Below, one piece after another: positions 39,323 through 40,335 of a stretch of 64,000 bases of DNA. Under the pieces are notes generated by a model. The model did not search any database and had not been told where the DNA came from. It saw only the letters and a program-made list of their open reading frames with translations. Position 1 is the stretch's first letter; every line of letters starts with the position of its first letter. Both the position numbers and the translations under genes were made by a program. The DNA comes from an uncultured Candidatus Saccharibacteria bacterium (GTDB lineage: Bacteria; Patescibacteriota; Minisyncoccia; Phycocordibacterales; UBA2100): positions 64,750 to 128,749 of the forward strand of contig CAZPGE010000001.1 of the NCBI GenBank assembly GCA_964586255.1, in the 5' to 3' direction.

Positions 39323-39916
39323 ATGCGCGAGCTTTTGATAGCAACAAAAAACGCGGGGAAAGTTCCTGAGATCTCGCAGCCGCTCGAAGGCACGCCATTT
39401 CGGATTATTTCTTTGCTCGATTTGCCCGCTACGCTGGATGTTGAGGAGCATGCCATGACGTACGAGGGCAACGCTATCATCAAAGCGGTTACATATGGTC
39501 GTCGCACAGGCTTGCTTGCGCTCGCCGACGACTCGGGTCTGGAAATAGGTGCGCTTGAAGGCGAGCCGGGCGTGCAGACGGCACGGTTTCTCAGCGGTAC
39601 CTATCGAGAGAAGATGACGACGCTTTTGGAAATGCTCAAAGATGTGCCCGACGATAAGCGCGGCGCCGTCTTTAGGGCCGTCGTCGCCATATACGACCCC
39701 GCTACGGATAAGGTGCGCACATGCGAAGGCGTCGTGACGGGTTCAATCGTGCGTGAAATACGCGGGGAGAGTGGTTTTGGATACGACCCAATATTCGATT
39801 ACGAGAATAGGGGGAAAACCGGCGGGGAGAACGCGCGCAGCGAGAAGCTTGAGCTCAGTCATCGTGCGCGCGCGATGAACAAGGCGAGAGAGATTCTATT
39901 GGCAGAATTTGTATGA
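39323..39916 (+). CDS. rdgB: non-canonical purine NTP pyrophosphatase (RdgB/Ham1 family dITP/XTP pyrophosphatase)
   Basis: IATKNAGKVPE...FGYDPIF...SHRARA are Ham1/RdgB motifs. It is embedded in the atp operon. Confidence 0.8.
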   Translation: MRELLIATKNAGKVPEISQPLEGTPFRIISLLDLPATLDVEEHAMTYEGNAIIKAVTYGRRTGLLALADDSGLEIGALEGEPGVQTARFLSGTYREKMTTLLEMLKDVPDDKRGAVFRAVVAIYDPATDKVRTCEGVVTGSIVREIRGESGFGYDPIFDYENRGKTGGENARSEKLELSHRARAMNKAREILLAEFV

Positions 39917-40335
39917 GCGACGAAAAGCAGCGGCCTAAGATTGGCATGGGCGTGTATATCCGCAAAGACGGGAAGATATTGCTCGGTAAGCGTCGCGGGG
40001 TGAACGGTGCTGGATTCTGGTGCCCTCCCGGTGGTCACCTAGAGATGAACGAGGAGTGGGAGGAGTGTGGGAGGCGCGAGACTCTCGAGGAAGCGGGCGT
40101 GGAGATTCAGAATTTCGCGTTTGTCACGGCAACAAATGACATTAATACAGAGGATGGTAAACACTACGTTACACTGCATTGCGTCGCGGATTGGAAATCA
40201 GGCGAAGCGCAGACGCTCGAACACGACAAAATAGGGGATTGGGGCTGGTACGCGCTCGAAGCCCTCCCTGAGCCGCTCTTCCTGCCCGCTAGAAATTTCC
40301 TTAAAAACGGCTATAATCCTCTCAACTTCAATTAA
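39913..40335 (+). CDS. NUDIX hydrolase
   Basis: Nudix box [24 protein letters not shown]. The gene overlaps rdgB by 4 nt and ends 2 nt before atpD. Confidence 0.8.

What the first reader, a model, noticed from the sequence alone, without database searches (positions are those of the whole stretch)
39323..40335. House-cleaning NTP pyrophosphatase pair (RdgB/Ham1 + NUDIX) inserted inside the F1Fo ATP synthase operon between atpG and atpD
Gene order is atpB-E-F-H-A-G | rdgB | NUDIX | atpD-C, with 4-nt and 2-nt junctions (ATGA overlap) and no terminator. The two nucleotide-sanitising enzymes are therefore almost certainly co-transcribed with the ATP synthase catalytic subunits. The canonical atpIBEFHAGDC order is highly conserved, so an insertion between gamma and beta is unusual. 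It would couple dITP/XTP and NDP-X hydrolysis stoichiometrically to ATP synthase expression. The window also holds a stand-alone NUDIX (58105-58599) and a NUDIX domain fused into LeuS. That is four Nudix modules in 64 kb, a striking local enrichment.
Basis: partly seen in the sequence, partly recalled or inferred. Interest (0 to 1): 0.55.

Follow-up and report, generated by a model that had tools for sequence, protein, structure and literature searches.

The report
House-cleaning genes inside ATP-synthase cluster
Two nucleotide-cleaning enzyme genes do sit between the gamma and beta genes of the ATP synthase cluster of this small-genome (CPR) bacterium, but this layout is usual for its lineage, where the junction is a variable cargo slot followed by a conserved promoter-like element for the beta gene, so it does not show a link to ATP synthase function.

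Summary
The gene order is atpB-E-F-H-A-G, rdgB (39323-39916), NUDIX (39913-40335), atpD-C, all on one strand. The gaps are 7 nt, a 4-nt ATGA overlap, and 2 nt. Both enzymes keep their catalytic motifs.

The source is a Kaiserbacteria-like CPR bacterium. Among 34 species-level relatives (window included), 25 carry rdgB and/or this NUDIX at the same gamma|beta junction. When both are present, they always share the ATGA overlap. The rest of the slot varies: it can be empty, or hold an unknown acidic ORF, toxin-antitoxin genes or a four-helix-bundle gene.

A sigma70-like promoter element sits directly upstream of atpD in nearly all relatives. In the window it is TAGAAA-16-TATAAT at 40290-40317, inside the last NUDIX codons. 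It is kept by synonymous-codon constraint, and nudix-less genomes keep it as a non-coding relic. I therefore read the cluster as at least two transcription units, with the pair riding at the 3' end of the atpB-G unit. Gamma|beta is a published atp breakpoint.

Outside this clade, rdgB and this NUDIX subfamily lie in unrelated contexts. A functional or stoichiometric link to ATP synthase is not supported. The window holds three Nudix modules, not four. I found no prior description. Interest is moderate.

The parts
34733..34770 (+). Intrinsic-terminator-like hairpin (12-bp stem plus T7 run) that closes the upstream unit, just before the atp cluster
34783..34791 (+). Extended -10-like element TGcTAAAAT, 10 nt before the atpB ATG. 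Putative P_atpB.
   Evidence: sequence read directly. Predicted only.
34802..36814 (+). atpB (34802-35593), atpE (35675-35902), atpF (35971-36420) and atpH (36425-36814)
   Evidence: Pfam hits. Gene calls on the identical public contig.
36791..36796 (+). TATAAT inside the atpH codons I-Y-N, 29 nt before the atpA ATG. Possible internal promoter for atpA.
   Evidence: An exact TATAAT lies upstream of atpA in 45% of relatives. Loci whose atpH end differs carry a separate intergenic (G)TATAATC.
36826..38397 (+). atpA (F1 alpha)
38410..39315 (+). atpG (F1 gamma)
   Evidence: PF00231, 2.2e-77.
39317..39332 (+). Weak 6-bp hairpin GCTCGT-ATGC-GCGAGC that encloses the rdgB start codon. It is not a convincing terminator and may lower rdgB translation.
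   Evidence: z = -0.16 in the window. A similar stem is seen in L015 and L013.
39323..39916 (+). rdgB/Ham1, a non-canonical purine NTP pyrophosphatase (197 aa)
   Evidence: PF01725 at 1.3e-49. Best solved relative is E. coli YggV/RdgB at 3.4e-34, with the motifs ATxNxGK, DDSGL, FGYDP and SHR aligned. TIGR00042 scores 144.1 bits against a cut-off of 145.35.
39913..40335 (+). Nudix hydrolase (140 aa) of the NUDT15 / plant NUDX1 / Rickettsia 'MutT' type. Its start overlaps the rdgB stop (ATGA).
   Evidence: PF00293 at 2.2e-18. PDB matches: 4kyx 1.5e-28, AtNUDX1 4e-26, NUDT15 4e-23. It reaches no NCBIfam equivalog cut-off.
40033..40101 (+). Nudix box [23 protein letters not shown] (strict consensus)
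40290..40317 (+). Sigma70-like promoter element TAGAAA-16-TATAAT (10 of 12 matches) inside the NUDIX codons A-R-N-F...G-Y-N, 20 nt before the atpD ATG. Putative P_atpD.
   Evidence: Found. It is one of only two gene upstream regions of 71 in the window that reach 10/12, against 0.33% of random positions. It is conserved across the clade and held by synonymous constraint.
40338..41971 (+). atpD (F1 beta, 40338-41714) and atpC (epsilon, 41720-41971, N-terminal domain only)

Best explanation
**What it is.** The window comes from a Kaiserbacteria-like member of the Candidate Phyla Radiation. In that clade, the boundary between the gamma gene and the beta gene of the F1Fo cluster is a permissive cargo slot.

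**The two genes.** A translationally coupled two-gene module has long resided in this slot.
- RdgB is a dITP/XTP/ITP pyrophosphatase.
- The second gene is a small Nudix hydrolase of the NUDT15/NUDX1 type. Its substrate is unknown. A non-canonical or oxidised (d)NTP is the most likely kind.

**How the pair is probably expressed (inferred).**
- The pair has no promoter-like signal of its own.
- It is therefore probably transcribed as the tail of the atpB-E-F-H-A-G transcript, from a promoter after the terminator at 34733-34770 and perhaps a second one before atpA.
- This would give two low-demand housekeeping enzymes constitutive expression.
- NUDIX translation is coupled to rdgB through the ATGA overlap.

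**How atpD-atpC is probably expressed (inferred).**
- These genes have their own sigma70-like promoter element, which has come to lie inside the last 15 or so codons of the NUDIX gene.
- This would explain why the slot tolerates gain, loss and replacement of genes without harming beta/epsilon expression.

**Conclusion.** The association with ATP synthase is positional and expression-related ('hitch-hiking' at a module boundary). It is not evidence of a mechanistic coupling of nucleotide sanitation to ATP synthesis.

**Shown versus inferred.**
- Shown: gene identities, motif integrity, spacing, clade-wide distribution, and conservation of the promoter-like element.
- Inferred: the transcript structure, promoter activity and enzyme substrates.
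For: **Identity.**

**Source lineage and distribution.**
- An identical contig exists in ENA sample ERZ27247837.
- A GTDB species-representative scan with atpG returned 38 loci, all Kaiserbacteria, Paceibacterota or Parcubacteria.
- Of 34 complete gamma|beta junctions, 12 hold rdgB plus nudix, 9 hold rdgB only, 4 hold nudix only and 9 hold neither.
- rdgB and nudix overlap by ATGA in 14 of 14 loci. nudix and atpD overlap by ATGA in 7 loci.
- Most embedded copies keep the Nudix box (14 of 16) and the RdgB motifs.
- GC and GC3 of both genes match the flanking atp genes.

**The slot.**
- Gamma|beta has more than 150 nt of extra DNA in 30 of 34 loci.
- The figures for other junctions are 6 of 36 at alpha|gamma, 6 of 29 at a|c, and 0-2 elsewhere.
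- Other cargo includes MntA/HepT, a PemK-like toxin, a four-helix-bundle protein, and an unknown acidic ORF.

**The promoter-like element.**
- atpD has the best promoter-like score of all junctions across loci. The mean is 8.5 of 12, and 53% of loci reach 9 or more. rdgB, nudix, atpG, atpF, atpH and atpC score 0-4% at that level.
- In the 12 loci whose NUDIX ends in G-Y-N-P, the codons are TAT-AAT 12 of 12 times, against background usage of 40% and 47%.
- The Arg codon that supplies the -35 is AGA 8 of 8 times, against a background of 5%.
- Nudix-less loci L022, L007, L039 and L013 keep GGTTATAATCC outside any ORF. L033 keeps only a NUDIX 3' stub.
- The four empty junctions have TTGxxx-16/17-TAxxAT.
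- Non-embedded NUDIX homologues lack the TAGAAA and are not fixed on TATAAT.

**Outside the clade.** The same NUDIX subfamily and RdgB lie next to RF1/Sua5, CYTH, infB-rbfA and ftsAZ, or between an ABC ATPase and its permease.

**Literature.** Gamma|beta is a recurrent split point of atp clusters in Cyanobacteria, Bacteroidetes, Chlorobi and Aquificae (PMC4154653; PMC5709465).
Against: - There are no RNA data. Transcript boundaries and promoter activity are predictions from a sigma70 consensus, which has not been validated in CPR bacteria.
- The conserved TATAAT-containing element could instead be a translation-initiation or other RNA/DNA signal.
- Pairwise distances of RdgB and of NUDIX do not track those of the flanking atp genes, nor each other (Spearman -0.15 to 0.16, against 0.3-0.64 among atp genes).
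- Non-embedded RdgBs from other CPR classes are as similar to the window's RdgB (55-57%) as most embedded ones are (44-56%).
- Simple vertical inheritance from one ancestral insertion is therefore not demonstrated. Replacement or repeated capture remains possible.
- Several distinct nucleotide hydrolases recur in F1 junctions: RdgB, this NUDIX, a second NUDIX type in L009 and L039, and an HD 5'-nucleotidase-like protein in L010. That hints at more than random hitch-hiking.
Confidence: 0.6

Rival explanations
1. Functional coupling. Nucleotide-pool sanitation is selected to be co-expressed with, or to act on, the F1 ATPase. One possible reason is that F1Fo makes or consumes non-canonical NTPs such as ITP in organisms that live on salvaged nucleotides.
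For: - The pair is kept with intact motifs across much of the clade.
- Besides RdgB and this NUDIX, other nucleotide hydrolases occupy F1 junctions in relatives. These are a different NUDIX at alpha|gamma in L009, a second NUDIX type in L039, and an HD 5'-deoxynucleotidase-like protein in L010.
- This looks more frequent than expected, given that about 4% of the window's genes have a NUDIX domain.
Against: - Nine of 34 junctions lack both genes, and four are empty.
- The same slot carries toxin-antitoxin genes, a four-helix-bundle gene and unknown ORFs.
- In other CPR lineages rdgB and this NUDIX subfamily are embedded in unrelated operons.
- atpD has its own conserved promoter-like element.
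- The rdgB start codon lies in a local hairpin, while the atpD initiation region is unstructured. Equal stoichiometry is therefore unlikely.
- I found no literature link.
Confidence: 0.13
2. Mobile cassette. rdgB-nudix is, or recently was, a transferable cassette that integrates at the 3' end of atpG, like the other cargo seen there. It is exchanged among Kaiserbacteria lineages.
For: - Cargo histories are decoupled from those of the atp genes. The window's RdgB is closest to that of L015 (78%), but its NUDIX is closest to that of L012 (75% against 63% for L015).
- In L014, L017 and L026, near-perfect 47-61-nt direct repeats of the atpG 3' end flank low-GC inserts carrying selfish genes. The site does receive DNA.
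Against: - No direct repeats flank the pair in the window or in any other locus.
- Its GC and GC3 equal those of the atp genes.
- The atpD promoter-like element is interwoven with the NUDIX coding sequence and is conserved across the clade. This argues for long residence.
- No integrase or transposase is nearby.
- Synonymous sites are saturated between all available genomes, so the discordance may be noise or rate variation.
Confidence: 0.15
3. Neutral packing. In a compact, mostly co-directional genome, the position is an accident of rearrangement with no expression consequence. The genes would then have unrecognised promoters of their own.
For: - Most genes in the window are co-directional, with gaps of a few bases.
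- CPR promoters are not characterised experimentally.
Against: - The same two genes sit at the same junction, with the same ATGA overlap, in many species whose synonymous sites are saturated.
- No promoter-like signal lies upstream of rdgB or nudix in any locus, whereas other genes show clear -10-like boxes.
Confidence: 0.1

Closest known systems
Split atp clusters of Cyanobacteria, Bacteroidetes, Chlorobi and Aquificae (a-c-b-delta-alpha-gamma unit plus a separate beta-epsilon unit)
   Same: The break is at exactly the gamma|beta junction, and beta-epsilon forms its own module (PMC4154653; PMC5709465). Here atpD-atpC has its own conserved promoter-like element. In one relative (L017), atpD is no longer downstream of atpG.
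   Different: In the window and most relatives the two modules remain adjacent and co-directional with no terminator. They are separated only by 0-1.8 kb of variable cargo. The beta promoter element lies inside the coding sequence of the cargo gene.
RdgB/YggV of E. coli and ITPA/Ham1 house-cleaning pyrophosphatases
   Same: The match to solved RdgB structures runs the full length (3.4e-34), with the nucleotide- and metal-binding motifs conserved. It also matches Pfam PF01725.
   Different: The genomic context differs. From my own knowledge, E. coli rdgB lies in the yggS-yggW region and in many bacteria it lies next to rph, never inside atp. The protein scores just below NCBI's equivalog cut-offs.
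NUDT15 (human), NUDX1 (Arabidopsis, rose) and Rickettsia felis 'MutT' small Nudix hydrolases
   Same: They are similar in size (about 140-165 aa). Alignment is end to end, including the C-terminal LPxPLF...GxNP segment (1.5e-28 to 3e-21). The Nudix box is intact.
   Different: The substrates of these relatives differ widely, as their PDB molecule names show: 8-oxo-dGTP/NTP diphosphatase, geranyl diphosphate phosphohydrolase, and ADP-ribose pyrophosphatase. The substrate here therefore cannot be read off. The MutT equivalog models are not reached (32 bits against cut-offs of 98-148).
Integrative elements that insert into the 3' end of a conserved gene and restore it with a duplicated copy (tRNA/tmRNA-type att sites)
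   Same: In relatives L014, L017 and L026, 47-61-nt near-identical direct repeats of the atpG 3' end bracket low-GC inserts carrying toxin-antitoxin or unknown genes.
   Different: The inserts are only 0.5-0.95 kb with no integrase. The target is a protein-coding gene inside an essential cluster. The rdgB-nudix pair of the window has no such repeats.
Nudix domains embedded in CPR aminoacyl-tRNA synthetases
   Same: The window's LeuS carries a NUDIX domain. Kantor et al. 2013 reported an IleRS interrupted by a nudix hydrolase domain in SR1 (PMC3812714).
   Different: That is a domain insertion in a protein, not a gene inserted into an operon. The three Nudix modules of the window are only distantly related to each other.

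Membership tests
RdgB/Ham1 non-canonical purine NTP pyrophosphatase | Full-length match to the Ham1p_like domain above Pfam's gathering score | tested here: met
   PF01725 scores 169 bits against a cut-off of 22.5, covering residues 4-190 of 197.
RdgB/Ham1 non-canonical purine NTP pyrophosphatase | Conserved substrate and metal-binding motifs (N-terminal T-x-N-x-G-K, DDSGL, FGYDP, SHR) | tested here: met
   All motifs align with E. coli RdgB 1k7k/2pyu. They are present in most embedded homologues.
RdgB/Ham1 non-canonical purine NTP pyrophosphatase | NCBIfam equivalog score cut-off | tested here: inconclusive
   TIGR00042 scores 144.1 bits against a cut-off of 145.35. NF011397 scores 177.7 against 234.
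RdgB/Ham1 non-canonical purine NTP pyrophosphatase | Hydrolysis of dITP/XTP/ITP to the monophosphate plus PPi | not testable with these tools
   This needs an enzyme assay.
Nudix hydrolase superfamily | Nudix box G-x5-E-x7-R-E-U-x-E-E-x-G-U within a NUDIX domain | tested here: met
   [23 protein letters not shown] lies at 40033-40101. PF00293 scores 67 bits against a cut-off of 21.1.
MutT 8-oxo-dGTP diphosphatase (equivalog) | Score above the curated equivalog cut-off | tested here: not met
   TIGR00586 scores 32 bits against 97.9. NF008044 scores 31.9 against 148. JGI's automatic name '8-oxo-dGTP diphosphatase' for homologues is therefore not backed.
NUDT15 / NUDX1-like small Nudix subfamily | End-to-end similarity to characterised members | tested here: met
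   4kyx 1.5e-28, 6fl4 3.9e-26, 5bon 4e-23 and 6ypb 2.9e-21, covering residues 4-138. The substrate is not inferable.
Single atpBEFHAGDC operon (one transcription unit) | All genes co-directional and contiguous, with no unrelated genes between them | tested here: not met
   Two unrelated genes lie between atpG and atpD.
Single atpBEFHAGDC operon (one transcription unit) | No internal promoter | tested here: not met
   A conserved TAGAAA-16-TATAAT lies before atpD, and a TATAAT lies before atpA. These are predictions from sequence, not RNA data.
Single atpBEFHAGDC operon (one transcription unit) | No internal terminator | tested here: met
   The only candidate is a weak hairpin at 39317-39332, which folds no better than shuffled sequence. 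There are no Rfam elements.
Split atp cluster (gamma-ending unit plus a beta-epsilon unit) | Break at the gamma|beta junction, with independent expression signals for beta-epsilon | tested here: met
.
Split atp cluster (gamma-ending unit plus a beta-epsilon unit) | The two units lie at non-adjacent genomic locations | tested here: not met
   They are adjacent in the window and in 33 relatives. Only L017 lacks atpD within 5 kb.
Site-specific integrated cassette / genomic islet | Direct repeats of the target site flanking the insert, with deviant composition | tested here: not met
   No repeats flank rdgB-nudix in the window, and GC/GC3 are native. The feature is met for other cargo in L014, L017 and L026.

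The most novel reading that the evidence does not exclude
In a whole clade of CPR bacteria, the 3' end of atpG and the gamma|beta boundary of the essential ATP synthase cluster serve as a dedicated integration and exchange site for small gene cassettes. On this reading:
- the 47-61-nt atpG-end duplications flanking toxin-antitoxin and unknown genes mark recent insertions;
- the rdgB-nudix house-cleaning pair is old, domesticated cargo of that site;
- its alleles are swapped between lineages;
- the promoter of the beta-subunit gene has evolved inside the coding sequence of the cargo gene and is kept as a relic when the gene is lost.

This would be an 'islet inside an operon', a kind of genome architecture that has not been described for atp clusters.
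Probability: 0.3. Interest if true: 0.6.

Novelty: new variant of a known kind. Interest (0 to 1): 0.42.

Why it matters
If the model holds, it shows how an essential, stoichiometry-sensitive gene cluster can tolerate foreign genes. The cargo sits at a module boundary that already has its own downstream promoter, and small housekeeping enzymes gain constitutive expression there in genomes with few regulators.

It also yields a testable CPR promoter: -35/-10 with a short or absent leader, supported by synonymous-site constraint. Promoters in this radiation are essentially uncharacterised.

It cautions against reading function from operon membership in ultra-compact genomes.

The atpG-end duplications in relatives point to a possible new attachment site for tiny mobile cassettes.

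Tried and rejected
- **Terminator between atpG and rdgB.** The hairpin at 39317-39332 is flagged by the scan. It has a 4-T tail, and its energy equals that of shuffles. Rejected as a terminator.
- **Known RNA elements.** Rfam at E <= 1 over 34000-44000 gave nothing.
- **Metagenome scan with RdgB.** The aim was to see whether the nearest RdgBs are all atp-embedded. It returned mostly distant gut-bacterial genes through the FGYDPIFD word, with only two close hits on short contigs. Uninformative.
- **NUDIX-RdgB fusion in L039.** The long ORF is only an upstream extension of the rdgB frame, and the NUDIX-like hit is in another frame. Rejected.
- **Recent recombination or mosaicism from DNA identity.** Four-fold sites are near saturation even against the closest genome, L015. 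Fine-scale inference is impossible.
- **Vertical-inheritance test with NJ trees and distance correlations.** The cargo is discordant, but the trees are star-like. Left unresolved.
- **Substrate assignment of the NUDIX.** No NCBIfam equivalog cut-off is reached, and the closest solved relatives have disparate substrates. Not assigned.
- **Literature.** Five searches found no description of rdgB or Nudix genes inside an atp cluster, or of this arrangement in Kaiserbacteria or CPR.
- **Shine-Dalgarno-based argument.** I saw no SD-like motif upstream of any atp gene or of the pair (read by eye), so it offers no discrimination.
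Full report
**1. What is in the window**

ORF listing, direct reading and Pfam scans confirm the layout.
- atpB 34802-35593, atpE 35675-35902, atpF 35971-36420, atpH 36425-36814, atpA 36826-38397 and atpG 38410-39315.
- A Ham1/RdgB gene at 39323-39916 (PF01725, 1.3e-49).
- A NUDIX gene at 39913-40335 (PF00293, 2.2e-18).
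- atpD 40338-41714 and atpC 41720-41971.
- The spacers are 7 nt (atpG to rdgB), a 4-nt ATGA overlap (rdgB/nudix) and 2 nt (nudix to atpD).

Public gene calls on an identical 326-kb metagenome contig (ENA ERZ27247837) agree. The GC and GC3 of the two genes are the same as those of the neighbouring atp genes.

**2. What the two proteins are**

*RdgB*
- It aligns over its full length with E. coli RdgB/YggV (3.4e-34).
- The N-terminal T-x-N-x-G-K, DDSGL, FGYDP and SHR motifs are conserved.
- It falls a hair below NCBI's equivalog cut-off, at 144.1 bits against 145.35.

*NUDIX*
- It has a perfect Nudix box at 40033-40101.
- It is most similar, end to end, to a Rickettsia felis 'MutT' structure, Arabidopsis NUDX1, human NUDT15 and rose NUDX1 (1.5e-28 to 3e-21).
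- It reaches no curated equivalog, and clearly not MutT.
- I therefore call it a NUDT15/NUDX1-type Nudix hydrolase of unknown substrate.

*Nudix count*
- The window has exactly three Nudix boxes: this one, one inside LeuS and one in a stand-alone gene at 58105-58599.
- They are only distantly related to each other.

**3. Is the arrangement unusual?**

A scan of one genome per GTDB species with the gamma subunit returned 38 loci, all from Kaiserbacteria, Paceibacterota or Parcubacteria MAGs. I located the window's proteins in them by tblastn.

Of 34 complete gamma|beta junctions, window included:
- 12 hold rdgB plus nudix;
- 9 hold rdgB only;
- 4 hold nudix only;
- 9 hold neither, of which 4 are empty with about 40-nt spacers.

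Wherever both genes occur, they overlap by ATGA (14 of 14). In 7 loci the nudix stop also overlaps the atpD start. So the arrangement is typical of this clade.

It is not general in CPR.
- NUDIX homologues at 60% identity or less lie beside RF1/Sua5, CYTH or other NUDIX genes.
- RdgBs of Minisyncoccia, Liptonbacteria, Colwellbacteria and another Patescibacteria genome lie after infB-rbfA, after ftsA-ftsZ, in a mixed neighbourhood, or between an ABC ATPase and its permease.

Five literature searches found no description of the arrangement.

**4. The junction is a cargo slot**

Extra DNA of more than 150 nt is present at each junction as follows:
- gamma|beta: 30 of 34 loci;
- alpha|gamma: 6 of 36;
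- a|c: 6 of 29;
- other junctions: 0-2 loci.

Besides the pair, the slot holds:
- a fast-evolving acidic helical ORF of 105-120 aa with no Pfam match;
- a MntA/HepT toxin-antitoxin pair;
- a PemK-like toxin;
- a four-helix-bundle protein;
- other unknown ORFs.

In L014, L017 and L026, near-perfect 47-61-nt direct repeats of the atpG 3' end bracket low-GC inserts. This shows that DNA does get inserted there. No such repeats flank the pair in the window.

**5. A conserved promoter-like element before atpD**

The consensus scan found TAGAAA-16-TATAAT at 40290-40317, 20 nt before the atpD ATG and inside the NUDIX codons A-R-N-F...G-Y-N.
- In the window, this is one of two gene upstream regions out of 71 that reach 10 of 12 matches. 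Only 0.33% of random positions do so.
- Across relatives, the region upstream of atpD has by far the best promoter-like scores of all junctions. rdgB and nudix have none.
- In all 12 loci whose NUDIX ends with G-Y-N-P, the codons are TAT-AAT, against background usage of 40% and 47%.
- The Arg that supplies the -35 is AGA in 8 of 8 loci, against a background of 5%.
- Four-fold sites are near saturation between these genomes, so these are nearly independent observations.

The element survives where there is no NUDIX gene.
- Nudix-less loci keep the element as non-coding sequence. L022 keeps about 45 nt of the nudix end. L007, L039 and L013 keep GGTTATAATCC.
- L033 keeps only a nudix 3' stub.
- The four empty junctions carry unrelated sequences that again read TTGxxx-16/17-TAxxAT.
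- NUDIX homologues outside the atp context lack the TAGAAA and are not fixed on TATAAT, though the sample is small.

Other signals point the same way.
- A similar (TG)TATAAT lies before atpA in about half of the loci.
- atpB follows a strong terminator and a TGcTAAAAT box.
- Many genes of the window have a -10-like box 6-10 nt before the ATG. The element therefore fits the genome's general layout.

I conclude, by inference from sequence only, that atpD-atpC has its own promoter.

**6. Interpretation**

The gamma|beta junction is a published, recurrent breakpoint of atp clusters. [quoted passage not shown]

The Kaiserbacteria-like clade looks like an adjacent, 'incipiently split' version. One unit ends with gamma and one starts with beta, with a permissive slot between them. 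One relative, L017, has lost the adjacency altogether.

The rdgB-nudix pair has no promoter signal, sits tight against atpG and is internally coupled. It is most simply read as riding on the tail of the upstream transcript. The rdgB start lies in a small local hairpin, while the atpD initiation region is unstructured. This argues against equal stoichiometry with F1 subunits.

A specific functional tie to ATP synthase is not supported.
- The slot holds varied cargo.
- Both genes are often lost.
- Both genes have other homes in other CPR lineages.

One observation keeps that rival alive at low probability. Several different nucleotide hydrolases occur in F1 junctions in relatives: a second NUDIX type and an HD 5'-nucleotidase-like protein.

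**7. Unresolved**

- Pairwise distances of RdgB and of NUDIX do not track those of the atp genes or each other (Spearman -0.15 to 0.16). Even the short atp genes correlate at 0.3-0.64.
- The window's RdgB is nearest to L015's, but its NUDIX is nearest to L012's.
- Non-embedded RdgBs of other CPR classes are as similar to the window's as most embedded ones are.
- This may reflect saturation and rate variation, or real replacement and exchange of cargo. Distance trees cannot decide.

**8. Verdict**

- It is partly wrong on three points: the arrangement is not an oddity of this genome, it does not show stoichiometric coupling, and the window has three Nudix modules rather than four.
- The arrangement is a clade-typical variant of the known gamma|beta split.
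- Two features seem undescribed: a promoter-like element for the beta gene embedded in a cargo gene, and a variable cargo slot in an essential cluster.
- Interest is moderate.

Noticed in passing
L014 5865-5911 / 6861-6907; L017 5859-5919 / 6428-6488; L026 5859-5912 / 6570-6623: Near-perfect 47-61-nt direct repeats of the atpG 3' end bracket low-GC inserts of 0.5-0.95 kb. The inserts carry an unknown 174-aa ORF, a PemK/MazF-like toxin, and a MntA/HepT pair. The atpG 3' end behaves like an attachment site for tiny cassettes that have no integrase.
   Followed up: partly
Related loci directly after atpG, e.g. L007 5917-6252, L008 5897-6214, L018 5941-6282, L025 5920-6264, L029 5920-6273; at alpha|gamma in L024 4648-4998 and L034 268-573: A fast-evolving, acidic, helical ORF of about 105-120 aa with no Pfam match recurs inside the F1 gene block of many relatives. 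It is absent from the window. It could be an unrecognised ATP-synthase-associated protein.
   Followed up: partly
window 41720-41971: The epsilon subunit is only 83 aa. It has the N-terminal beta-sandwich domain but lacks the C-terminal helical domain that is inhibitory in other bacteria. All relatives match at the same length.
   Followed up: no
window 47799-51203 (Nudix box 49617-49685): Leucyl-tRNA synthetase (1134 aa) carries an inserted alpha/beta-hydrolase domain (aa 254-433) and a NUDIX domain (aa 578-692). A comparable NUDIX-interrupted IleRS was reported for SR1 (PMC3812714).
   Followed up: partly
window 36791-36796 and related loci upstream of atpA: TATAAT, often TGTATAAT, lies 20-30 nt before atpA in about half of the relatives. 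It sits either in the atpH codons I/L-Y-N or as a separate intergenic box. This may be a second internal promoter that boosts the alpha subunit.
   Followed up: partly
window-wide, e.g. upstream of 7324, 7995, 13407, 33303, 35675, 43836, 44347, 54516, 59471(-): Many genes have a -10-like hexamer that ends 6-10 nt before the ATG, and no Shine-Dalgarno motif is evident. This suggests very short leaders or leaderless mRNAs in this genome.
   Followed up: no
L013 vs L015 vs window (atpB, atpE vs atpA, atpD): The Fo genes and the F1 genes have discordant similarity. atpB and atpE are 98-100% identical to the window in L015 but 59% in L013, while atpA and atpD are about 90% in both. The cluster looks mosaic between its membrane and catalytic parts.
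   Followed up: no
L017 (DATDWX010000006.1), downstream of atpG: There is no atpD or atpC within 5 kb of atpG. A PemK-like insert, a duplicated atpG end and serS follow instead. In this relative the cluster is physically split at gamma|beta.
   Followed up: no
L053 3501-4106: In another Patescibacteria genome, rdgB sits between an ABC-transporter ATPase gene and its permease gene, with a 4-nt overlap. This is another case of rdgB embedded in an unrelated operon.
   Followed up: no
L009 4565-4999; L010 4211-4996: The alpha|gamma junction of two relatives holds a different NUDIX hydrolase and an HD-domain protein weakly similar to 5'-deoxynucleotidase YfbR. These are further nucleotide hydrolases inside the F1 block.
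   Followed up: partly
window 57493-58599: The stand-alone NUDIX gene (58105-58599) directly follows a GNAT acetyltransferase gene (57493-58086) with an 18-nt gap.
   Followed up: no
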